Shown: positions 44,439 through 52,238, numbered from the stretch's first letter. The stretch is 64,000 nt of DNA from Polyangia bacterium (GCA_038257535.1 JBBSJE010000003.1:1436-65435), one strand, 5' to 3'. Numbers and translations are program-made. The notes: generated from the letters alone by a model not told the origin.

Positions 44439-45080
44439 ATGGCAAAGTCAGGTCTTTCGAGAGGTCTTCACCCGCTTATCGTTGTATTGGTCTTGGCCGG
44501 CGTCAGCTCGGTTGTTGGGGTGGTCGCCTGCTCGGGCGATGACGACGACGCAAAGGCGCTGTGCGTGCAAGGCTGCGACAAACTGGTTTCCTGCAACCCT
44601 CAGCTTCAAGGGTTCGTGGGCTCGTGCAAGACCCGATGTGAACAGCCCGCCGAGGGCGCTTCAAACCAGCGGTGCGCCAACGAAGCGGCCATTGTGTCGA
44701 AGTATAAGGAATGCTTGTCAACGGCGTGCCCGCAGTTTGAGGGCTGCCTTGGGGCCATTCCCGCGTGCCAGGGTAACAGCACCTCGGGTACGGGCGGCAC
44801 AACAGGAGCGGGTGGCACACAGGGAATGGGCGGCACAACAGGCACCGGGGGTGTACCGGGCACCGGCGGCATGAGCGGCTCTACAGACTGCAGCGTGTGC
44901 ACGAAGGCGGATGCTTGCTGTACGGCGTTTGCGGCGCTGTCCAACGCGGGCACCGGGGCCTGCACTTTGGAACAAGCTTGTGCAACTTCCGGCGGAAACG
45001 CATCGACCGTCGTTGAAACCTGCACCTTGTTGATAACAAACATAGCTCAGGCCGCGCCCGATTTGGCGGCGTGTAAATAA
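44439..45080 (+). CDS. Cys-rich lipoprotein (CX3C...C...CX3C framework, Gly/Thr-rich linker, second Cys-rich half)
   Basis: ORF 44400..45080 trimmed to ATG 44439; the lipobox is VVACSG. It has CVQGC ... CKTRC, the linker GTGGTTGAGGTQGMGGTTGTGGVPGTGG, and then 9 further Cys. Confidence 0.7.
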   Translation: MAKSGLSRGLHPLIVVLVLAGVSSVVGVVACSGDDDDAKALCVQGCDKLVSCNPQLQGFVGSCKTRCEQPAEGASNQRCANEAAIVSKYKECLSTACPQFEGCLGAIPACQGNSTSGTGGTTGAGGTQGMGGTTGTGGVPGTGGMSGSTDCSVCTKADACCTAFAALSNAGTGACTLEQACATSGGNASTVVETCTLLITNIAQAAPDLAACK

Positions 45081-45100
45081 AGCCGTTCTTTCGAGCGGCT
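45081..45100 (+). terminator. 8-bp hairpin with tetraloop directly after the stop codon
   Basis: agccgttc-tttc-gagcggct (one G-U pair). No T-tract follows, so function is uncertain. Confidence 0.3.
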
Positions 45101-45487
45101 GGTGCATGGGCCAGCCTTGTAGCAGACCCATGCGTTGCCGCTGCAGATCCCTTAGCCGCGTGGTTGCGGACGTGACACGGCGTTAACCGTGCTGCCCGTT
45201 GTGGTTCCTCAAAACCCCATCCACCACGGAATGATTGAATTTTTCGGCAAGGCCGTCAAGCTCCTCCGGCTCGATGCTGCACCTACTTCTTGCACTGCTC
45301 GCCACAGCAAGGTCGAGCCTCAAGCCGCAACGGGACCTCGCCCTGAGAACCTAGCGCCTCGCCAGCAGTTCCGCGCGCACGCATTTGTCGTTGGCCAAGG
45401 ATGCCCCTGTGCCCCGGCCCGTCGTGACCAATAGCCATGGTCACATGGTTGGCTTGCCTGAGCGGCATCTCTCGACTCAAGCCAAAC

Positions 45488-47227
45488 TCAAAGCGGCAGT
45501 CGAGCGTTGATTCCCCAGCACCACAACCTCTGGTCGATTCCGATGGCGCAGTTGCTTCTCCCCGTGCCCAATGCTGTGAAGCTGCCCTCAGGTACCACCG
45601 CGCGGCTGTGAAAATCTCCGGAGCAAGTGATGGTGCCGTCCGTGCGCAAGCCACACATCAGGCGCTCGCCGAGGTTGATTTGCTTGAACGTCCCCATGTC
45701 TGGAAAGTGGCGAGGCTCCATCCCGCCGCCCCAACAAACGATGGTTTTGTCCGTTCTCAGGCCACACGTACGGAAGCGATCTGCAGTGAGCTGAACGAAG
45801 TTCTCATTGGGTGCGTCTGCCTGGCCCTCGGCGTTGTTGCCCCAACAAGCAGCGGAGCCATCGAGCCGAAGACCGCAGCTGTGGAAGTCGCCGGCCACCA
45901 CCTTCACGAAAGGTTCATCGGGCGGCATAGATTGGCCAAATTCGTCGCTGCCCCAGCAGGTGGCGCGTCCGTCTGCCCTCACGGCGCAGCTATGCTGATC
46001 GCCCGTCGCCACATCCACGAAAGTCCCCTCAGGCGCAGCGGTTTTGCCGTCACGCTCATTGCCCCAACATTTGACCGTCTGTTGGCTTGTGATCCCGCAC
46101 GCGTGTGAAGCCGCGGCGCTGACCATAAGGAAGCGATCGCGAAAGAAACCAGCGCCCCAACATAGAAGCGTCTGGTCTGGCTTTAGGCCACAGGAGTAAC
46201 CCGCACCGCCACTGACCTGCGTGAAGAGATCGTTGGGCGCGGTACTTTGCCCGTAGGGATCGCTTCCTTGGCAAACGATGTCGCCATCGCTTTTGAGCCC
46301 GCAAAGGTGCCCCGGATATAAACCTCCCATGTCTATCTGCGTGAACTTTCCTTCAAGTCCTACAGGCCCAACGCACGCTACGCTGCCGTCATTCCTGATT
46401 CCACAACTGAGGTGGCGTCTACCCGCGCTGATTCGGGTGAGGGGGCCGAGCGAGGCGAGTTGGTTCTTTTCTTCACCCGAGATCTCTCCCCAACAAGTGG
46501 CGTTCCCCTCGGCGTTCAAAGCGCAACTGTGTGCATCACCTACAGCCAGCTGAGTGAACTTTCCGCTGGGTGGTTGCTCGTAAGTGGGAGATCCCCAGCA
46601 GGCAATTGTGCCATCGACCCTGAGACCGCAGTTATGCACCCCGCCGGAGCTCACGCCGATGAAAGATCCCGCAGGCGGCGGCACGACCGGGGCCCGATAA
46701 GCGATCTGATGACCCCAACAGGCGAGCAACCCATCCTGCTTTACGCCGCAGGCGTGCCTCATTCCGGCGCTTATCTGTTTGAAGAAGCCATCCGGCCCCG
46801 GCGCGGGCCAATTCTCCTTGTGGCCCCAACACTCGACGGACCCATCCATCCGCAATCCACAGGTGAACGAAGACCCGGCGGTGACTTGCGCGAACTTGCC
46901 CGCAGGGGGAGAACTTTGACCTTGGTCATTTCTTCCCCAGCAGGCGACGGTCCCATCGCGCCGCAGGGCGCAGGTGTGAGAGCCGCCCGTGGCCACCCCG
47001 CGCTCCAGAGGAAGCAGAGGCGGCGGCGCGTCGGGCTGCACTGCAAGCTCCGAAGTGTCGGACTCTGCGGCATCAGAGGCTTTGATCAGGGCCGCATCAA
47101 CATGCTCTGCCCATCTAGTGTCCGGATCGCCCCCATCGTTAAGCTCCGGCTCGCTCGCGGGTGGGCTGCCGCCGCACGCACCTAAAACGACACACGATGC
47201 AACCGCCCACACAAACTTTGCCTTCAT
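45488..47227 (-). CDS. RCC1-like short-repeat (beta-propeller) lipoprotein
   Basis: ORF 45488..47296; the lipoprotein start MKAKFVWAVASCVVLGAC at 47227 is preferred. The alternative start at 47296 would make an ATGA overlap with the caspase gene. There are about 14 tandem ~37-aa units of the form xCG(L/V)RxDGxxxCWGxxxxGQ..P.G.F.Q(V/I).(A/G)G. Confidence 0.85.
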   Translation of the reverse strand: MKAKFVWAVASCVVLGACGGSPPASEPELNDGGDPDTRWAEHVDAALIKASDAAESDTSELAVQPDAPPPLLPLERGVATGGSHTCALRRDGTVACWGRNDQGQSSPPAGKFAQVTAGSSFTCGLRMDGSVECWGHKENWPAPGPDGFFKQISAGMRHACGVKQDGLLACWGHQIAYRAPVVPPPAGSFIGVSSGGVHNCGLRVDGTIACWGSPTYEQPPSGKFTQLAVGDAHSCALNAEGNATCWGEISGEEKNQLASLGPLTRISAGRRHLSCGIRNDGSVACVGPVGLEGKFTQIDMGGLYPGHLCGLKSDGDIVCQGSDPYGQSTAPNDLFTQVSGGAGYSCGLKPDQTLLCWGAGFFRDRFLMVSAAASHACGITSQQTVKCWGNERDGKTAAPEGTFVDVATGDQHSCAVRADGRATCWGSDEFGQSMPPDEPFVKVVAGDFHSCGLRLDGSAACWGNNAEGQADAPNENFVQLTADRFRTCGLRTDKTIVCWGGGMEPRHFPDMGTFKQINLGERLMCGLRTDGTITCSGDFHSRAVVPEGSFTALGTGRSNCAIGIDQRLWCWGINARLPL

Positions 47228-47292
47228 CCTGTAAAGACGGCTGAGGGTAGAAAATCCGGCCAACCATCGCACCCGAGCCTGACTAGGTGCCG

Positions 47293-49101
47293 TCAAAAGT
47301 CCGCAGAGAATCCAATCAAGTAGGTTTCTTCAACGGAGGCTGTGCGATACACGTAGGCGACGGTGACGTGGCCCTCCAAAGCCCAAGATTCACCCAAATA
47401 AACGCGCACCAAAGGCAAGGGACGCAAGGCGCGCCTTTGCACAGAGCCCACCGCCACCACAAGTCCCCCTTGTGAAAGCAGATCAGCTGCCGGCTGCCAG
47501 ATCCCCCCTTGCACGAACGTCTTCGCCACGCCGCCACCTAAGTTGAAAGTGGCGATGCCACGCAAGTCCCACGAGGCCCCCACTGTTGATAACGCGGTCC
47601 ATGTGTCAAATGGCTTGCGTGGCGCCGCTTGCTCGGCCCACTGCCCAGCGCCGAAAGCCGCCAGGCTGATGTTGAAAGACTCAGTACGTGGCATTTCATG
47701 CCAGCGAAAATCGACGCCGGCGCCAATTAACGAACTAACCATAATACCCTGCGCATCAGTTCGAGAGACACCCACTACCGGCATGCCGAACCAAGGAATC
47801 CATTCTAGGCCGTACTCGTCACCACCTCCGTAGGCCAGTGCCAGAGGCAGCGCCAAGTGCCATCGTGGCGCAAATCCATAGGTGATGCGTAGCAACCCCG
47901 CCGCGCCGTCTGACCCCGTCAAGCGCACTCCAGGATCAATGACCGGCGCATGACGAACGCCCAACGCCAACTGAACGTTCCACGAACCCGGGGCGACAAT
48001 GCTGGTCTCGCCTGCTGTCAAAGACTTATTGGCCAAAACCTGATCACGGCCACGGACGAGTTCGGCTTCTTCAAGACTGGCGTTGCCTTCGCGGCCAAGG
48101 GCCACTTCACGGGACCAAACGGCGCCTTTGCCTTGACGGCGCACCAGATACTTTCCAGCGGGTAGAGCCAGACGCAACCTCTTCTTCCCAGGCTGCGTTT
48201 CAAGCAAAACGATCCCGTTGCGCAGATCAACAAGTTGCAACGGCCCCGTTTCTTGCCGAAGCATCAACAAAGCGCGCGGTCTATCCAAGGCGGAAAGAAC
48301 CAGATCATCACGCCCTTTCACATCCATATGGAAGCTGGGGTTTTGGGGCTCACTTGCCAATCGTGCGGTGTCCCGAACCGTCATTTCGCGCGCATAGGCG
48401 AAAGCCTCGTTGATCGTGATGAGGCCATCGTCGTTGTGATCACCGGCGCCGCGCAGCCCCGCGTTCCAATGATGTGTGAAGAACGAGGCGCCCAATAGCT
48501 CGGACTCGTGGGCGTTCTGGGCCCCCGAACTGGAGGAGATCAAGATGGCGCCCTCGCTCGTCAAAGCGCTGGGTACATCCACGTCAAATGGGGCGGCTTC
48601 ACTCAAACCCTTGCTGCCCGTCCATCCGCCGCCGCGGCAGGCATCGATAATTCCCATCCGCAACAGGGCCCGCTTGTCTTGCATCCGAACCCGCAGGTCG
48701 GACACGGCCAACTTTTGCCCGCTCGGATAAAGCGCTTCGGGATCCGCGTGGCCCGAGTAGTAAAATAGCAGCAAAGCCTGACTCGACTTCACTTTGCCTG
48801 CCTGAGCCAAAGCGTTTTCGAGCGCATCTATCACCTGCGCTGGCTGCGGCTCCTTCAGCAGGCGCACATTCTCCGGAAGAAATCCTCCCGTTTGAACCAA
48901 CACGTCCGCGACCGCCTGGGCGTCCCTGTGCGCGTAGCGCAAGCGTGCCCGGCCAGTCGGTGCGGCATTCGCCCCAACCACGACTGCCAAGCGCAAAACG
49001 GGTGGTTCAGTTTGTGCCTGCGCGCGGCCTGGAGTGGGCAGGGCAATCGCCAAACCCAGCGCCAACCTCCACACCCGCAACGTACGCGACCGCGCTTGCA
49101 T
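47293..49101 (-). CDS. Caspase-family (peptidase C14) protein fused to a C-terminal outer-membrane beta-barrel-like domain
   Basis: The signal peptide ends GRAQA. The C14 dyad is LLFYYSGHADPE (His) and GIIDACRGGGW (Cys). The last ~230 aa have alternating hydrophobic beta-strand patterns, and the protein ends ..TYLIGFSADF with a terminal Phe. Confidence 0.8.
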   Translation of the reverse strand: MQARSRTLRVWRLALGLAIALPTPGRAQAQTEPPVLRLAVVVGANAAPTGRARLRYAHRDAQAVADVLVQTGGFLPENVRLLKEPQPAQVIDALENALAQAGKVKSSQALLLFYYSGHADPEALYPSGQKLAVSDLRVRMQDKRALLRMGIIDACRGGGWTGSKGLSEAAPFDVDVPSALTSEGAILISSSSGAQNAHESELLGASFFTHHWNAGLRGAGDHNDDGLITINEAFAYAREMTVRDTARLASEPQNPSFHMDVKGRDDLVLSALDRPRALLMLRQETGPLQLVDLRNGIVLLETQPGKKRLRLALPAGKYLVRRQGKGAVWSREVALGREGNASLEEAELVRGRDQVLANKSLTAGETSIVAPGSWNVQLALGVRHAPVIDPGVRLTGSDGAAGLLRITYGFAPRWHLALPLALAYGGGDEYGLEWIPWFGMPVVGVSRTDAQGIMVSSLIGAGVDFRWHEMPRTESFNISLAAFGAGQWAEQAAPRKPFDTWTALSTVGASWDLRGIATFNLGGGVAKTFVQGGIWQPAADLLSQGGLVVAVGSVQRRALRPLPLVRVYLGESWALEGHVTVAYVYRTASVEETYLIGFSADF

Positions 49102-49880
49102 CAGTGCAAATCATCCGATCCCCGCACCGCGGGGGCAGACCCTTCCGCAGGCTTTTTCGGCAAAACCAGCTCCGTTAGCCACCAGCGGGGATCCGGCTCT
49201 TTGCCCTTCAACTCATTCACATCTTCACTTCGCACAGCTTCCTTAGACAGCACAAGCAAGATCCGCTCGTCGCCAGGTTGTGAATCTATTTGCCACGCCA
49301 CGGGCAAACTCGTGGGGCCCTTGCCTCCGGCCGGGCCCGTCCATAGTCTCTGCCAAGCGCCGGAAGCATCGCGACCGAATGCCGATATGTGCGTGTGGTT
49401 CATTGCATCGACCTTTAGCCGCAACAGGTCCCCCGGTAGGACCGTTGTCGACCCGTCCCACAAAAACGTGTCGTCGCCGCGCTTGACGTAAGCCCAAACC
49501 ATGGGACTTGCCGCCTTGACCCCTACGTAGGCCTCATGATCCCTAACGGCATCATGAGGCTGCGGTTTCAGCAAGAACAAGGAAATTGCGAGTGCAGGCG
49601 CCATCACCAAAGCGGGCAGCCACAAGGCCCGCAGGCGGCTTCGTAGACCAGACAAAGAATGCCTGCCAGGGTGCGGTGCTTCTCCGCGTCGCGGGGGAAC
49701 CGATGCAGGAAGCTCCCGCACCCAAGCAGGTAAAACTTCGGCGTCAGGGCCCACGCGCGCCACGTGTTGCTGGCAAACGATGCAAAAGCTCACGTGCTCT
49801 TGCACGGTGGGAGAGGCGGGTGCCCCGGTTGCAAGTGAATCCAGGGCAAGGAACGACGGATGTGCCTGGTTATCGTTCAT
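49101..49880 (-). CDS. Anti-sigma factor with zf-HC2 (Hx3Cx2C) motif and one TM
   Basis: EHVSFCIVCQQHV lies near the N-terminus and the TM segment is LWLPALVMAPALAISLFLL. It has an ATGA overlap with the sigma gene (49877-49880) and a TGATG 1-nt overlap with the caspase gene (49099-49103). Confidence 0.75.
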   Translation of the reverse strand: MNDNQAHPSFLALDSLATGAPASPTVQEHVSFCIVCQQHVARVGPDAEVLPAWVRELPASVPPRRGEAPHPGRHSLSGLRSRLRALWLPALVMAPALAISLFLLKPQPHDAVRDHEAYVGVKAASPMVWAYVKRGDDTFLWDGSTTVLPGDLLRLKVDAMNHTHISAFGRDASGAWQRLWTGPAGGKGPTSLPVAWQIDSQPGDERILLVLSKEAVRSEDVNELKGKEPDPRWWLTELVLPKKPAEGSAPAVRGSDDLH

Positions 49881-50371
49881 GCTTCCACTCCCTGCTGTAT
49901 GCGCATGGTGGCCAAACGGTCATCGAGCCGCTTCAGCACACGCCTCACGCTTCGCTCGCTGATGCCCATCACCGCAGCGACTTCTTGTTGGTTTAGACCG
50001 TCCAAACGCGACAACACAGCCACTTCCATCTCGTCGCCTGGTAGGTCTTTCACCAACTTGTGCAGCAAGAGCCGGGCGTGGCTCAGTCCCTCGGGGCTGC
50101 TCGTGTCTGCGTGCATTTCATTAAGAGCTGCCAGTTGTTTGCTTGAGCGAAGCTTGTCGATGGCCAGGTGCGTGGCGGTTCTGTAGATCCAGGCGATGGC
50201 CGCCTCAGGCGCGCGCAGGCTGTCCTGCAACTGCCAGAACCGCAGAAACGTTTCCTGCGCCACATCCTGGGCATCACCCGCGCTGCCAAGAATGCGTTTG
50301 CACTTCTCTCTGATCATGGGGAAGTAATGACGGTAGGTGGCCTCAAGGCCTTGTTTGCCCGGTTGGGTCAT
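49877..50371 (-). CDS. ECF-type RNA polymerase sigma-70 family factor
   Basis: 164 aa with region 2 (AQDVAQETFLRFW...WIYRTATHLAIDKLR) and region 4 HTH (QQEVAAVMGISERSVRRVLKRL). Confidence 0.88.
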   Translation of the reverse strand: MTQPGKQGLEATYRHYFPMIREKCKRILGSAGDAQDVAQETFLRFWQLQDSLRAPEAAIAWIYRTATHLAIDKLRSSKQLAALNEMHADTSSPEGLSHARLLLHKLVKDLPGDEMEVAVLSRLDGLNQQEVAAVMGISERSVRRVLKRLDDRLATMRIQQGVEA

Positions 50372-50936
50372 ACGTTGTTCGAGAGTTAACTGAACACAAG
50401 ACGAACCGGCGGGGAAATTCCGGCCAAAAAAAAGTGACAGCGTAAAACTTGGCAGAGCTTGAGGGCGCGCATGACTTTCAAGCTGACAACGCGAAGACGA
50501 TGGCGGGCGTTGGGGTTACCACGCCCCGGGCGAGTCCAAGTGGCTTCGAGACAAATCTGCGGGCGTAGCCATCGAGTTTTACCGCGTGTTCCAAGAGTCA
50601 AATGGCACGGCGTATATGATCCCACGCCCCGATGGCAACCCCGATCTGTTGGCGATCTGTAGCAACCCTACACACGTGCTGCGGCCAACGCTTGATCGAT
50701 ATGGTCTTTGCAACGCAGCTCCCTCGCCAGAGGTGGTTAATGCTATGGCCCCCGCCGATGCGCTGGCGATCGCCCGTCATCTGCACGAGGAGCTGGTGTT
50801 CGTGGGAGAGCAAGGTGCCGTCACGCCCTACGTGCCACCAGACGACATTCTCGCGCTCTGCAACACCGACGAAGTATTTCGCACCACCATGAGATCGCGA
50901 ATTTGCGTGGCCTTCTTCAGGCGTCCGCCAGCTCTA

Positions 50937-52238
50937 TCAGAACGGAGCCAGTGCGCCTGTGATAGAAATCGGCTCGTAGCCCTTCGGCTGCACCGATGTG
51001 GCCCCAAACGCGTCAATCGGGATGCCGTAAAGGCGGGCCAGGCTGACCAGCAATTGATTGTGGGACGCGCCGGTGAAGAGGGGGGCGTCCTGACTGGTTG
51101 GTTTGACGGGTACGTCGCGCGCCACGTGAACGTATCGCCCACTGCGAAAGCCCAATTTCTCCCCGCCCAGCATGACCACGTGCCAGGGAAAGAACGAGTG
51201 ATCGGGCTGTCCTTCTCGGCCCATCCAAACCATCAAGGTCGAATCAAGCAAGCGCCCATCGCCTTCACGCTCCTCTGCATTGGCCAGCGCTTGCGCCAGC
51301 TTTGCCACCTGGGTGGCGGCGTAGGCGTTGTAAGCAACCATCGTTGCACGTGCTCGCATGCCCGATTCTCCCGGAACGCCAATGCGGTGGGCGTGATCCT
51401 GTTCAAGGTTACCATTGTAATGCACCTCCTCGGGACTGGGCAAGGGTAGATGCAAGGTGACAACTCGCGTGCGATCGCAGAGAAACGCCGAGGTGACAAC
51501 GTCGACCACGGCCGCCATCCATGTATCGAGGCGTGATGGACGCGTTGTGGGTGCTGGCTTGGCGTCTGGACAGGATGTGCCTTCCATGGTGGCGAACAAG
51601 AGATTGTGAAAACCACGTAAATCGAGTTTGGGTATAGGCTTCCCTTGCTGATCGAACGAGACGTTTCCCGCTACGATGGTTCCCGCGACCGCCAGAGTCA
51701 CCGGAGCCTTCCCTTGCACCTGGTTTCCTATCAGCCAGTCGATCGACGGACCGGGCACATGAATCTGACCAGCTCTATCCATTAGCGAAGGCAGATGGCC
51801 GGTGAGCAGCAGCACCGGATGGTGGACGTTCTGGTTTATCGCCGTGTGCATAGACAATCCGTCGAACACACTGAGGCGTTGGCGCAAACTCTCGAACGGG
51901 GCCAGGATGGGACTAAGCCCGGGCTCTGGGGCGTCGAGCGAAGCCGACCAGAACTCTTTGTCGTTGGCCTCCGCGGGTTTTGGCAACGCCAGCCCTTCAT
52001 CGAGAAACCCGAAGGCGTGTGTGATGATCACCAAGCGCCGCGGTGGCTCGCCTGCCACCGGGACTGGGCCACCGTCGGCAGAGGCGTCGATGGCGGTCGC
52101 GGTGTCGGTTGGGTCAACTGCTGCGTCATCGCCAGCGTTGGGTCCGCTATCGGGCGTTTCATCTGACTCAAGCGCCCGACCATCAGCGCAGCCGCAGTAC
52201 AGCAAGATCAGAACCGCGATCGATACAGCTTGTCGCAT
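50937..52238 (-). CDS. DUF1552-like protein with lipoprotein-type signal
   Basis: ORF 50937..52352 trimmed to ATG 52238 (MRQAVSIAVLILLYCGC). The features LVIITHAFG, ..FDGLSMH........LLTGH, SIDWLIG, CDRTRVVTL and HNQLLVSLARLYGIPIDAFG follow the DUF1552 pattern as I remember it. Confidence 0.6.
   Translation of the reverse strand: MRQAVSIAVLILLYCGCADGRALESDETPDSGPNAGDDAAVDPTDTATAIDASADGGPVPVAGEPPRRLVIITHAFGFLDEGLALPKPAEANDKEFWSASLDAPEPGLSPILAPFESLRQRLSVFDGLSMHTAINQNVHHPVLLLTGHLPSLMDRAGQIHVPGPSIDWLIGNQVQGKAPVTLAVAGTIVAGNVSFDQQGKPIPKLDLRGFHNLLFATMEGTSCPDAKPAPTTRPSRLDTWMAAVVDVVTSAFLCDRTRVVTLHLPLPSPEEVHYNGNLEQDHAHRIGVPGESGMRARATMVAYNAYAATQVAKLAQALANAEEREGDGRLLDSTLMVWMGREGQPDHSFFPWHVVMLGGEKLGFRSGRYVHVARDVPVKPTSQDAPLFTGASHNQLLVSLARLYGIPIDAFGATSVQPKGYEPISITGALAPF

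What the first reader, a model, noticed from the sequence alone, without database searches (positions are those of the whole stretch)
45488..50371. Translationally coupled operon: ECF sigma, Hx3Cx2C anti-sigma, caspase/beta-barrel fusion, RCC1-repeat lipoprotein
The start/stop overlaps read directly from the DNA are ATGA at 49877-49880 and TGATG at 49099-49103. Depending on which RCC1 start is used, there is also either ATGA at 47293-47296 or a 65-nt gap. Such tight coupling implies co-expression and probably stoichiometric co-production of a redox/zinc-type anti-sigma factor, an exported caspase and a beta-propeller lipoprotein. I know of no characterised ECF system whose immediate partners are a C14 peptidase and an RCC1 propeller.
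Basis: partly seen in the sequence, partly recalled or inferred. Interest (0 to 1): 0.6.

Follow-up and report, generated by a model that had tools for sequence, protein, structure and literature searches.

The report
Sigma switch with outer-membrane caspase partner
A myxobacterial sigma factor, its membrane inhibitor and a caspase-like protease anchored in the outer membrane form a conserved, apparently self-activating three-gene unit, and the neighbouring RCC1 propeller lipoprotein is not part of that coupled operon but a separate gene carrying its own copy of the same promoter motif.

Summary
All four minus-strand genes exist. They encode an ECF sigma, a zinc-motif (Hx3Cx2C) single-pass anti-sigma, a caspase/beta-barrel fusion and an RCC1 lipoprotein. 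The third junction reads TTGA, not ATGA.

The sigma, anti-sigma and caspase genes form a conserved module across Myxococcota. An ECF sigma lies upstream on the same strand in 81 of 89 caspase loci. Four-base gene overlaps recur in most loci. This genome holds three further sigma-linked copies.

RCC1 is not a conserved neighbour. Orthologous loci carry a BNR/Sortilin or Kelch propeller, small lipoproteins or nothing in its place.

A conserved ECF-type promoter motif (TGGCCGGAWTT, then CGTC) precedes the sigma genes. In the 7.2-Mb genome it scores 20 bits or more at only two sites. One lies upstream of this sigma gene. The other lies inside the 65-nt gap, with CGTC 8 nt before the RCC1 ATG at 47227. 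So RCC1 is most likely a separate, possibly leaderless, sigma-dependent gene, not a translationally coupled one.

Best model: trans-envelope signalling in which the outer-membrane-anchored caspase cleaves the anti-sigma. That step is inferred, not shown.

Sigma/metacaspase operons were noted bioinformatically in 2012 and remain uncharacterised.

The parts
50394..50429 (-). ECF-type promoter motif upstream of the sigma gene: TTTTGGCCGGAATTTCCCCGCCGGTTCGTCTTGTGT. CCGG is at 50423-50420 and CGTC at 50403-50400, 28 nt before the ATG.
   Evidence: PWM built from 41 sigma-upstream sites in related loci. This site scores 37.0 bits, the top hit in the 7.2-Mb genome. It was 1 of the 41 training sites. 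The orthologous site in same-genus G002 scores 34.4.
49877..50371 (-). ECF sigma factor, 164 aa, sigma-2 plus sigma-4 only.
   Evidence: Sigma70_r2 E 5.7e-15 and Sigma70_r4_2 E 3e-8. TIGR02937 scores 75.4 bits against a cut-off of 42.9. No specific NCBIfam subfamily reaches its cut-off.
49101..49880 (-). Single-pass anti-sigma factor, 259 aa. N-terminal zinc-motif domain (H7, H29, C33, C36), TM helix 77-104, flexible linker 105-126 with conserved K122, periplasmic Ig-like beta-sandwich 127-241.
   Evidence: H29, C33 and C36 are invariant and H7 is at least 90% conserved in 49 orthologues. AF2 model pLDDT 81.9. Profile hits to the anti-sigma factors RsiW (E 0.0018), DdvA (E 0.0049) and RslA (E 0.016). 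No Pfam hit for the window protein itself. Its start overlaps the sigma stop by ATGA.
47293..49101 (-). Exported caspase-like (C14) protease fused to a beta-sandwich and a C-terminal outer-membrane beta-barrel, 602 aa. Signal peptide about 1-28, caspase domain 36-260 (His118/Cys155), beta-sandwich 268-344, barrel 374-601 ending in ...GFSADF.
   Evidence: Peptidase_C14 E 3.3e-12. H118 and C155 are invariant in 56 homologues. AF2 pLDDT 83.4. Foldseek matches procaspase-7 and metacaspase (probability 1.00), plus OmpT, porins, the NalP translocator and FapF. Its start overlaps the anti-sigma stop by 1 nt, TGATG.
47230..47265 (-). Second copy of the promoter motif, in the 65-nt gap between the caspase stop and the RCC1 ATG: GGTTGGCCGGATTTTCTACCCTCAGCCGTCTTTACA. 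CGTC is at 47239-47236, 8 nt before ATG 47227, which is leaderless geometry.
   Evidence: 33.1 bits. It is one of only two sites in the whole genome scoring 20 bits or more, against 0 in a shuffled genome, and it was not in the training set. The same CGTC-8-to-10-nt-ATG geometry recurs before lipoprotein genes in related loci.
45488..47227 (-). RCC1-repeat lipoprotein, 579 aa from ATG 47227. Signal peptide MKAKFVWAVASCVVLGAC with lipobox LGAC.
   Evidence: RCC1_2 scores 250 bits over 9 stretches. There is no orthologue in the same-genus genomes G001 and G002. DNA homology to G002 stops exactly at the caspase stop codon, 47293.

Best explanation
The locus is a self-contained envelope-signalling module with an attached target gene.

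The core is a three-gene operon on the minus strand, 47293-50371, with its own promoter at 50394-50429. It encodes three proteins:
- An ECF sigma factor.
- A single-pass anti-sigma factor. Its cytoplasmic zinc-motif domain (H7/H29/C33/C36) would hold the sigma. Its periplasmic part is a floppy linker followed by an Ig-like beta-sandwich.
- A Sec-exported caspase-fold cysteine protease (His118/Cys155), anchored in the outer membrane by its own C-terminal beta-barrel.

Shown here: the domain make-up, the conservation of the triad and of its gene overlaps, the conserved promoter motif in front of the sigma genes, and a second strong copy of that motif directly in front of the RCC1 lipoprotein gene.

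Inferred from the motif positions: the sigma transcribes its own operon (positive feedback). It also transcribes the RCC1 gene as a separate, probably leaderless, transcript starting at or next to ATG 47227.

Inferred mechanism, not shown: an envelope signal activates the outer-membrane-tethered caspase. The caspase cuts the anti-sigma in its periplasmic linker, with the conserved K122 as the candidate site. A site-2 protease of the M50 family then cuts within the membrane and the sigma is released.

The beta-propeller lipoprotein is the variable output, or a co-sensor. It is RCC1 here and BNR/Sortilin or Kelch in relatives.

My odds: about 0.85 for the module and regulon description, and about 0.4 for the specific claim that the caspase cleaves the anti-sigma.
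For: Conservation of the triad:
- Of 89 caspase loci with at least 1.7 kb of upstream sequence, 81 have an ECF sigma upstream on the same strand. An anti-sigma between them is detectable in 71.
- 4-nt overlaps occur at the sigma/anti-sigma junction in 45 of 57 loci and at the anti-sigma/caspase junction in 35 of 57.
- This genome has three further sigma/anti-sigma/caspase cassettes, on C24, C87 and C46.
- DNA homology to the same-genus genome G002 spans exactly 47293-50432, from the caspase stop to the -35 element. The three genes plus their promoter are the conserved unit.

Promoter:
- GGCCG followed 13-19 nt later by CGTC occurs in 43 of 82 sigma upstream regions, against 5 after shuffling. 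45 instances have the exact CCGG-N16-CGTC spacing.
- The genome-wide PWM scan gives only two hits of 20 bits or more, one before the sigma and one before RCC1. A shuffled genome gives none.
- A weaker third site (17.5 bits), with the same geometry, precedes the closest RCC1 paralogue on C11.
- In relatives the extra motif copies sit 8-10 nt before the ATG of lipoprotein genes: RCC1 (L031), BNR/Sortilin (L028, L033, L075) and Kelch (L035), among others.

Protein evidence:
- Catalytic His118 and Cys155 are invariant in 56 homologues.
- Caspase and outer-membrane-barrel folds are supported by the model and Foldseek.
- The anti-sigma profile hits RsiW, DdvA and RslA.
- The linker has low pLDDT, and a K or R occupies position 122 in 49 of 49 sequences.
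- The caspase's disordered loop after Cys155 carries G-S-K164-G165, with K in 55 of 56 and G in 56 of 56. The anti-sigma linker has K followed by G in 44 of 49.
- M50 site-2 proteases are encoded in the genome.

Precedent: M. xanthus DdvA is a zinc-motif (ZAS-type) anti-sigma with a periplasmic caspase-family CHAT domain, proposed to act as its own site-1 protease and shown to be an RseP substrate once truncated (PMC11506125). In type III-E CRISPR systems a caspase-like protease cleaves Csx30, which is bound to an ECF sigma, and some Csx30 C-terminal domains are DUF4384 (bioRxiv 10.1101/2022.08.17.504292).
Against: - There is no transcript, protein or activity data.
- Nothing shows that the caspase touches the anti-sigma. 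Co-folding was not available.
- The shared K-G motif is only 2-3 residues long. In the window's own anti-sigma it reads K-A, not K-G.
- P1 specificity of this caspase family is unknown. Its active-site motif D-A-C-R-G-G resembles neither canonical metacaspases nor caspases cleanly.
- If the caspase is made from the sigma-dependent operon and also releases the sigma, the loop would run away unless protease activity is separately gated.
- The topology of the caspase domain (periplasmic or surface-exposed) is not established.
- The periplasmic domain of the window anti-sigma has no significant Pfam or PDB relative.
Confidence: 0.5

Rival explanations
1. The caspase is an output, not a regulator. 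The sigma/anti-sigma pair senses its signal in some other way. The outer-membrane caspase and the propeller lipoproteins are effectors made in response, for example for surface-protein processing, predation, matrix remodelling or developmental autolysis.
For: The caspase gene lies downstream of the sigma-dependent promoter motif, as ECF target genes usually do. Some relatives have stand-alone caspase genes with their own copy of the motif and no adjacent sigma (L008/L055, L036, L044). This fits a target gene better than an obligate co-regulator. The candidate regulon is otherwise made of exported lipoproteins. Asplund-Samuelsson et al. suggested an autolysis role (PMC3501461).
Against: The strictly conserved order and the 4-nt or 1-nt overlap of the caspase start with the anti-sigma stop in 45 of 57 loci point to co-assembly rather than a mere target. 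A paralogous anti-sigma periplasmic domain scores just under the DUF4384 cut-off, and that domain type is described as often fused to protease domains. Both observations are circumstantial.
Confidence: 0.3
2. One reading: all four genes form one translationally coupled operon, giving stoichiometric co-production of anti-sigma, caspase and RCC1 propeller as one complex.
For: A TTG at 47296-47294 overlaps the caspase stop (TTGA) and opens the same frame as the ATG. No terminator-like hairpin lies in the gap, so read-through from the operon promoter probably also reaches RCC1.
Against: - The stated ATGA is not in the sequence.
- The 23 extra codons from the TTG overlap a 33.1-bit promoter motif.
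- The ATG start gives a textbook lipoprotein signal peptide.
- Homology with the same-genus genome stops at the caspase stop codon.
- No RCC1 gene follows the caspase in any of about 100 related loci.
Confidence: 0.07
3. This is a cytoplasmic redox or zinc switch like RsrA/SigR or ChrR/RpoE. Oxidation of the Hx3Cx2C zinc site releases the sigma, and the periplasmic partners play no part in signalling.
For: H7, H29, C33 and C36 are conserved in the pattern of ChrR-type zinc sites (the ChrR ligand pattern is from my own knowledge). There are weak profile matches to ZAS anti-sigma structures.
Against: Most ZAS-motif anti-sigma factors are not redox sensors (established knowledge of the family). 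This protein is membrane-spanning, with a well-folded, conserved periplasmic domain. That domain would be unnecessary for a cytoplasmic sensor. The model does not explain the conserved exported caspase.
Confidence: 0.08
4. This is an anti-phage or programmed-death module of the DdvS/DdvA or craspase kind, in which the caspase kills or arrests the cell after infection.
For: The closest characterised analogue, DdvS/DdvA, controls a defence island. PADLOC's generic caspase model gives a weak hit, E 2.2e-7. One metagenomic orthologous locus sits next to cas1/cas2/cas4 (L027).
Against: No defence genes lie next to the module in the window or in most loci. The targets carrying the motif are exported propellers and small lipoproteins. 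The caspase is exported and outer-membrane-anchored rather than cytoplasmic. PADLOC finds no system-specific match.
Confidence: 0.05

Closest known systems
DdvS/DdvA of Myxococcus xanthus (PMC11506125; PMC6061681)
   Same: A myxobacterial ECF sigma with a single-pass, zinc-motif anti-sigma. A caspase-family protease module sits on the periplasmic side and is proposed to act as the site-1 protease ahead of RseP. The system is autoregulated. The profile of the anti-sigma family here weakly matches DdvA chains (E 0.0049).
   Different: In DdvA the CHAT protease is fused to the anti-sigma itself, behind TPR repeats, in a protein of about 990 aa. Here the protease is a separate C14-type protein anchored in the outer membrane by its own barrel, and the anti-sigma carries only a small Ig-like sandwich. 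The DdvS regulon is CBASS/CRISPR defence. The candidate regulon here is a propeller lipoprotein.
Sigma-70-family/metacaspase operons noted by Asplund-Samuelsson et al. 2012 (PMC3501461)
   Same: Almost certainly the same kind of operon. That paper reports four of the five M. xanthus DK1622 metacaspases in operons with sigma factors, with the same structure in Anaeromyxobacter, Haliangium and Sorangium.
   Different: That paper records only the co-occurrence. In the passages I read, it does not describe the anti-sigma, the outer-membrane barrel, the promoter motif, the regulon or a mechanism.
Cell-surface signalling, FecI/FecR/FecA type
   Same: Three-part logic: an ECF sigma, an inner-membrane anti-sigma with a periplasmic domain, and an outer-membrane beta-barrel protein encoded alongside. 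Release of the sigma involves proteolysis of the anti-sigma. This comparison rests on established knowledge of the system.
   Different: No FecR domain, TonB-dependent receptor, Plug domain or N-terminal signalling domain was found. The outer-membrane partner here carries a cysteine protease.
RseA/DegS/RseP and RsiW/PrsW/RasP regulated intramembrane proteolysis
   Same: A single-pass anti-sigma whose periplasmic part must be clipped by a site-1 protease before an M50 site-2 protease acts. M50 proteases are present in this genome. The anti-sigma profile weakly matches RsiW (E 0.0018).
   Different: The known site-1 proteases are the serine protease DegS and the metalloprotease PrsW in the inner membrane, and they are not encoded in the sigma operon. 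Here the candidate is a caspase-fold enzyme on the outer membrane that is translationally coupled to the anti-sigma.
Craspase (type III-E CRISPR) Csx29/Csx30/RpoE
   Same: A caspase-family protease cleaves an anti-sigma-like protein bound to an ECF sigma. Some Csx30 C-terminal domains are DUF4384, the family that a paralogous anti-sigma in this genome nearly reaches (26.3 bits against a cut-off of 27).
   Different: Craspase is cytoplasmic, RNA-guided and TPR-CHAT based. There is no CRISPR link here, and the protease is exported.

Membership tests
ECF (group 4) sigma-70 family | [quoted passage not shown] | tested here: met
   164 aa. Sigma70_r2 at residues 13-78 and Sigma70_r4_2 at 101-148. 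TIGR02937 scores 75.4 bits against a cut-off of 42.9.
ECF (group 4) sigma-70 family | Assignment to a numbered ECF group (ECF Hub / Casas-Pastor 2021). | not testable with these tools
   No ECF-group HMMs are on hand. No specific NCBIfam subfamily reaches its cut-off. The main text of PMC7826278 does not mention caspase, and its supplements are not held.
ECF (group 4) sigma-70 family | Autoregulatory promoter with an AAC/CGT-like bipartite motif upstream of its own gene. | tested here: met
   TGGCCGGAWTT, then CGTC, with CCGG-N16-CGTC spacing, is conserved upstream of sigma genes in 45 instances. The window site scores 37.0 bits. Actual use by this sigma is not shown.
ZAS (zinc-binding) anti-sigma domain | H-x3-C-x2-C motif in an N-terminal helical domain, encoded next to the sigma. 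| tested here: met
   H29, C33 and C36 are invariant and H7 is at least 90% conserved in 49 orthologues. 55 of 57 related anti-sigmas carry the motif. AF2 gives three short helices at 10-43.
ZAS (zinc-binding) anti-sigma domain | Match to Pfam zf-HC2 (PF13490) or to solved anti-sigma domains. | tested here: inconclusive
   No Pfam hit for the window protein, even at E 10. The paralogue on C46 hits zf-HC2 at E 2.9e-4, 21.3 bits against a cut-off of 22.2. The family profile hits RsiW (E 0.0018), DdvA (E 0.0049) and RslA (E 0.016).
ZAS (zinc-binding) anti-sigma domain | Zinc binding and sigma binding. | not testable with these tools
   Needs biochemistry or a co-fold prediction.
Peptidase C14 (caspase/metacaspase/orthocaspase) | Pfam PF00656 above the gathering score. 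| tested here: met
   47 bits against a cut-off of 21.4, residues 37-238.
Peptidase C14 (caspase/metacaspase/orthocaspase) | Catalytic His-Cys dyad. | tested here: met
   S116-G117-H118 and D153-x-C155 are invariant in 56 homologues.
Peptidase C14 (caspase/metacaspase/orthocaspase) | Caspase-hemoglobinase fold. | tested here: met
   Foldseek matches procaspase-7, Candida metacaspase and caspases 3, 6 and 8 at probability 1.00, with target-normalised TM-scores up to 0.70.
Peptidase C14 (caspase/metacaspase/orthocaspase) | Proteolytic activity and P1 specificity. | not testable with these tools
   Needs an enzyme assay.
EACC1-associated caspase (NCBIfam NF047832) | Score above the curated cut-off. 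| tested here: not met
   57.6 bits against a cut-off of 140.
Outer-membrane beta-barrel protein | C-terminal antiparallel barrel with a terminal aromatic residue (beta-signal) and an N-terminal signal peptide. | tested here: met
   AF2 places the barrel at residues 374-601 with pLDDT mostly above 90. Foldseek hits OmpT, PorB, OmpA, NalP and FapF. The protein ends in ...GFSADF and begins MQARSRTLRVWRLALGLAIALPTPGRAQA.
Type Va autotransporter | Alpha-helical linker through a 12-stranded barrel, carrying an N-terminal passenger to the cell surface. | tested here: not met
   The model has no helix before the barrel. Instead there is a beta-sandwich at 268-344 and a disordered stretch at 353-363. 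The NalP match is weak (target-normalised TM-score 0.34). Surface exposure is not excluded.
DUF4384 (PF14326) | Pfam match in the anti-sigma periplasmic domain. | tested here: not met
   The window protein has no hit. 1 of 49 orthologues hits at E 0.002. The paralogue on C24 scores 26.3 bits against a cut-off of 27. The fold is an Ig-like sandwich with only weak PDB matches. A distant relationship remains possible.
RCC1-repeat beta-propeller | Tandem RCC1 repeats. | tested here: met
   RCC1_2 E 2.8e-76, 9 stretches.
Bacterial lipoprotein | Signal peptide ending in a lipobox [LVI][ASTVI][GAS]C. | tested here: met
   MKAKFVWAVASCVVLGAC from ATG 47227, read directly from the sequence. No dedicated predictor was run.
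DdvA-type anti-sigma | Periplasmic TPR-CHAT fused to the ZAS anti-sigma. | tested here: not met
   The anti-sigma is 259 aa with no TPR or CHAT. The caspase-fold domain is on a separate protein.
FecIRA-type cell-surface signalling | FecR-domain anti-sigma and a TonB-dependent transducer. | tested here: not met
   No FecR, Plug or TonB_dep_Rec hits in the four proteins.

The most novel reading that the evidence does not exclude
A modular proteolytic relay across the Gram-negative envelope. A caspase-fold protease tethered to the outer membrane is the dedicated, signal-gated site-1 protease of a zinc-motif anti-sigma factor. The small regulon it unlocks consists of the module itself plus an interchangeable, leaderless beta-propeller lipoprotein: RCC1, BNR/Sortilin or Kelch, depending on the lineage. 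That lipoprotein serves as the ligand-binding sensor or the effector. This would give bacterial caspase homologues a defined signalling substrate. It would also show non-homologous propellers being swapped into one regulatory slot.
Probability: 0.3. Interest if true: 0.8.

Novelty: new variant of a known kind. Interest (0 to 1): 0.6.

Why it matters
In the literature I could search, bacterial caspase homologues have almost no assigned substrates or physiological roles. In this family, one of them is locked by gene order and overlapping start/stop codons to a sigma/anti-sigma pair across Myxococcota. That yields a concrete, testable substrate (the anti-sigma linker) and a concrete read-out (two promoters sharing one motif).

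The candidate regulon is very small. In this genome it comprises the module itself, the adjacent RCC1 lipoprotein and probably one RCC1 paralogue. That makes the system easy to test.

In relatives, different beta-propeller families occupy the same promoter-driven slot. This suggests a general propeller-plus-caspase envelope function in predatory, social bacteria.

For annotation, the analysis corrects the RCC1 start codon and shows that the gap holds a promoter rather than a coupling site.

Tried and rejected
- **Pfam on the anti-sigma.** No hit at E up to 10 for the window anti-sigma, its C-terminal half or the barrel region. One mis-framed request failed.
- **DUF4384 identity of the anti-sigma periplasmic domain.** Only borderline support, from a paralogue and 1 of 49 orthologues. 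Foldseek gave only generic Ig-like, CARDB and transthyretin matches. I do not file the domain as DUF4384.
- **ECF group assignment.** Not possible. NCBIfam gave only the superfamily. The ECF classification paper's main text has nothing on caspases, and its supplements are not held.
- **RCC1 as a conserved fourth gene.** Rejected. There is no RCC1 hit downstream of the caspase in about 100 loci and no orthologue in the same-genus genomes.
- **Internal terminators or sigma-70 promoters uncoupling the genes.** None beyond chance.
- **Defence-system membership.** PADLOC gave only a weak generic caspase hit.
- **Literature searches.** Searches combining ECF with Peptidase_C14, Myxococcus with ECF and metacaspase, and orthocaspase with outer membrane and beta-barrel found nothing.
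- **First upstream extraction for motif search.** My first attempt mis-set start codons. I redid it anchored on the HMM alignment.
- **P1 specificity of the caspase.** I considered inferring it from active-site motifs and dropped the attempt. I could not align the S1 pocket reliably from memory.

Full report
**1. What is in the sequence**

Four ORFs lie head to tail on the minus strand.
- The sigma gene is at 49877-50371 and encodes 164 aa.
- The anti-sigma gene is at 49101-49880 and encodes 259 aa.
- A 602-aa gene lies at 47293-49101.
- An RCC1-repeat gene ends at 45488.

Pfam finds Sigma70_r2 and r4_2 in the first protein, nothing in the second, Peptidase_C14 (residues 37-238) in the third and nine RCC1_2 repeats in the fourth. 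NCBIfam places the sigma only in the general ECF superfamily (TIGR02937).

The sigma/anti-sigma junction is ATGA. The anti-sigma/caspase junction is TGATG.

It reads TTGA, a TTG start over the TGA stop. The alternative start, ATG at 47227, lies 65 nt after the caspase stop. It yields MKAKFVWAVASCVVLGAC, a short lipoprotein signal peptide with the lipobox LGAC.

Terminator-like hairpins in 44800-51000 are at chance level, and no sigma-70-type promoter lies within the genes.

**2. The proteins**

An AlphaFold2 model of the 602-aa protein, built on 56 homologues, has mean pLDDT 83.4. It shows four parts:
- a signal peptide;
- a caspase-fold domain at 36-260;
- a small beta-sandwich at 268-344;
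- a C-terminal beta-barrel at 374-601, ending in ...GFSADF.

Foldseek against the PDB matches the N-terminal part to procaspase-7, a yeast metacaspase and caspases 3, 6 and 8 (probability 1.00). It matches the C-terminal part to OmpT, porins, OmpA, the NalP translocator and FapF. His118 and Cys155 are invariant in the 56 sequences. The loop after Cys155 (residues 157-182) is modelled with low confidence but is highly conserved (C-R-G-G-[GS]-W-T-G-x-K-G-L).

The anti-sigma model, built on 49 orthologues, has pLDDT 81.9. It shows:
- three short N-terminal helices at residues 10-43;
- a TM helix at 77-104;
- a low-confidence linker at 105-126;
- a very confident Ig-like beta-sandwich at 127-241.

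H29, C33 and C36 are invariant and H7 is nearly so. A profile of the family weakly matches the solved anti-sigma factors RsiW, DdvA and RslA (E 0.0018-0.016). The periplasmic sandwich has only generic structural neighbours.

Its relation to DUF4384 is borderline. A paralogue in this genome scores 26.3 bits against a cut-off of 27. The window protein and 48 of 49 orthologues score nothing.

**3. The conserved unit is three genes, not four**

The genome is a roughly 7.2-Mb MAG. Relatives are labelled Polyangia, Polyangiaceae or Myxococcales. It holds four further homologues of the caspase protein. Three of them (contigs C24, C87 and C46) are again preceded by an ECF sigma and a membrane anti-sigma. 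The genes following them differ from cassette to cassette.

I fetched about 100 caspase loci from relatives and from GTDB representative genomes. They include cultured Archangium, Hyalangium, Pyxidicoccus, Myxococcus and Chondromyces. Of 89 loci with enough upstream sequence, 81 have an ECF sigma on the same strand just upstream. An anti-sigma homologue between them is detectable in 71. The sigma/anti-sigma junction is a 4-nt overlap in 45 of 57 loci. The anti-sigma/caspase junction is a 4-nt overlap in 35 of 57 and a 1-nt overlap in 10 more.

No RCC1 gene follows the caspase gene in any of these loci.
- In the same-genus genome with an 88%-identical caspase, DNA homology to the window runs exactly from 47293 (the caspase stop) to 50432 (just past the -35 element of the sigma promoter) and breaks on both sides.
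- Neither same-genus genome has an orthologue of this RCC1 protein.
- Orthologous metagenomic loci with 62% and 49% caspase identity carry a BNR/Sortilin-type propeller as the fourth gene. A third has none.

**4. A promoter motif links RCC1 to the sigma**

The upstream regions of 82 triad-linked sigma genes share a bipartite motif. GGCCG followed 13-19 nt later by CGTC occurs in 43 of them, against 5 after shuffling. The exact CCGG-N16-CGTC spacing occurs in 45 instances, with consensus gTGGCCGGaTTT...tCGTCtt.

I built a weight matrix from 41 such sites and scanned the whole genome on both strands. Exactly two sites score 20 bits or more, and a shuffled genome gives none.
- The first site, at window 50429-50394, scores 37.0 bits. 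Its CGTC lies 28 nt before the sigma ATG. It was 1 of the 41 training sites.
- The second site, at window 47265-47230, scores 33.1 bits. It lies inside the 65-nt gap, with CGTC 8 nt before the RCC1 ATG at 47227. It was not in the training set.

The next best site in the genome scores 18.9 bits. A 17.5-bit site on contig C11 has the same geometry and a similar spacer (CCTCAGCCGTC). It directly precedes a 617-aa lipoprotein that is the closest paralogue of the window RCC1 protein (30.5% identity).

In relatives, additional motif copies recur right after the caspase stop, or divergently or upstream of the sigma. Their CGTC typically lies 8-10 nt before the ATG of a lipoprotein gene. Pfam identifies these products as follows:
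- RCC1 (L031);
- BNR/Sortilin propellers (L028, L033, L075);
- a Kelch propeller (L035);
- a TonB-dependent-receptor-like protein (L079), where the ATG is 31 nt from CGTC;
- small Cys-rich lipoproteins (L064, L065, L067, L071) and two further products without Pfam hits.

A short distance between the -10 element and the ATG implies leaderless or near-leaderless transcripts. That is an inference from geometry only.

My reading is therefore as follows. RCC1 starts at ATG 47227. It is not translationally coupled. It is a lineage-specific but genuine member of this sigma's very small candidate regulon.

**5. How it most likely works**

Established knowledge of ECF systems says that a membrane anti-sigma holds the sigma until its periplasmic part is clipped by a site-1 protease and an M50 site-2 protease finishes the job. 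M50 proteases are present in this genome.

Here the only conserved, co-translated third component is an exported cysteine protease anchored in the outer membrane. The anti-sigma offers a floppy periplasmic linker of variable length, ending in a basic residue. Position 122 is K in 47 and R in 2 of 49 sequences, followed by G in 44 of 49. The caspase's own disordered loop carries an almost invariant G-x-K-G.

I therefore favour a relay in which an envelope signal activates the caspase, the caspase cuts the anti-sigma linker, and the released sigma drives its own operon and the propeller lipoprotein gene.

The module and regulon description stands on the data above, at about 0.85. The cleavage step is inference, at about 0.4. 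The main rival is that the caspase is simply an output (0.3). Stand-alone caspase genes carrying the motif in some relatives support that rival (L008/L055, L036, L044).

**6. Comparison with what is known**

The nearest characterised system is DdvS/DdvA of M. xanthus. There a ZAS anti-sigma carries a periplasmic TPR-CHAT (caspase-family) domain, proposed to cleave itself ahead of RseP (PMC11506125). Here the protease is a separate, outer-membrane-anchored C14 protein.

Craspase offers a second parallel. A caspase-like protease cleaves Csx30, which is bound to an ECF sigma, and some Csx30 C-termini are DUF4384. ECF54 has been associated with CHAT-domain neighbours (PMC8999054).

The co-occurrence of sigma factors and metacaspases in operons of Myxococcus, Anaeromyxobacter, Haliangium and Sorangium was recorded in 2012 (PMC3501461). 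The association itself is therefore not new. I found no description of the anti-sigma, the barrel anchor, the promoter or the propeller targets.

Earlier notes of this scan report the same module in many other genomes and propose the same cleavage idea. Those are not independent evidence. I checked their shared-motif claim on my own alignments and found it present, but short, and imperfect in the window's own anti-sigma (K-A rather than K-G).

**7. Verdict**

The coupled unit has three genes. RCC1 is a separately promoted, non-conserved candidate regulon member.
- The system is a new variant of a known kind: an ECF/anti-sigma switch with a dedicated caspase partner. It was noted bioinformatically before and has never been characterised.
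- Interest is 0.6.

Noticed in passing
G000 contig C11:40145-42033 (+), outside the window: A 17.5-bit copy of the same promoter motif (TTGGCCGGATCTTCGCGCCTCAGCCGTC) sits 5-8 nt before ATGATG of a 617-aa RCC1-like lipoprotein. That protein is the closest paralogue (30.5% identity) of the window's RCC1 protein. It is probably a second RCC1 target of the same sigma.
   Followed up: partly
window 47293 and 50432 (boundaries of homology to L009/L010): DNA similarity to the same-genus genome G002 (about 79-82% identity) begins exactly at the caspase stop codon and ends just beyond the -35 element. The flanks are unrelated on both sides. The three-gene module with its promoter behaves like a discrete cassette in different neighbourhoods.
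   Followed up: partly
G000 contigs C24:20825-23959 (-), C87:14942-18904 (+), C46:28477-33018 (+), C175:12356-end: Three further sigma/anti-sigma/caspase cassettes occur in the same genome, none with the window's promoter motif. C87 is followed by a 313-aa lipoprotein (CGGNYSNEDIEF...) that recurs after caspase genes in L015 and L023. C46 has a caspase with a C-terminal TM segment instead of a barrel and is followed by a DUF1592/DUF1588/DUF1595-family protein. C175 has a caspase gene with no sigma upstream.
   Followed up: partly
L064, L065, L067, L071 (just after the caspase stop) and L084 (upstream of the sigma): In Myxococcaceae and Archangiaceae loci the extra motif copy drives a lipoprotein of about 91-99 aa. 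It is rich in Cys (…PGPWSYCVQTC…RDFAVL…), has no Pfam match, and its ATG lies 8-9 nt after CGTC.
   Followed up: no
L008/L055, L036, L044: Some caspase/barrel genes have no sigma or anti-sigma upstream but carry their own copy of the promoter motif 110-390 nt before the caspase homology begins. These look like stand-alone caspase genes that could be served in trans by a sigma of this type.
   Followed up: no
L027:1-2513: In one metagenomic orthologous locus the triad lies about 2.3 kb downstream of cas4/cas1 and cas2 genes. This was not seen in the other loci.
   Followed up: no
L032, L033, L034, L035 (opposite strand, 1.25-2 kb upstream of the caspase start): Divergent motif copies stand back to back with the sigma promoter. 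They drive large lipoproteins on the other strand: a 737-aa BNR/Sortilin protein in L033 and a 663-aa Kelch protein in L035. This is a bidirectional promoter region sharing one motif.
   Followed up: partly
window 50372-50936: The 565-nt gap upstream of the sigma gene contains the promoter only in its last 60 nt. The rest, including a T8 run on the minus strand immediately 5' of the -35 element, is not conserved with the same-genus genome.
   Followed up: no
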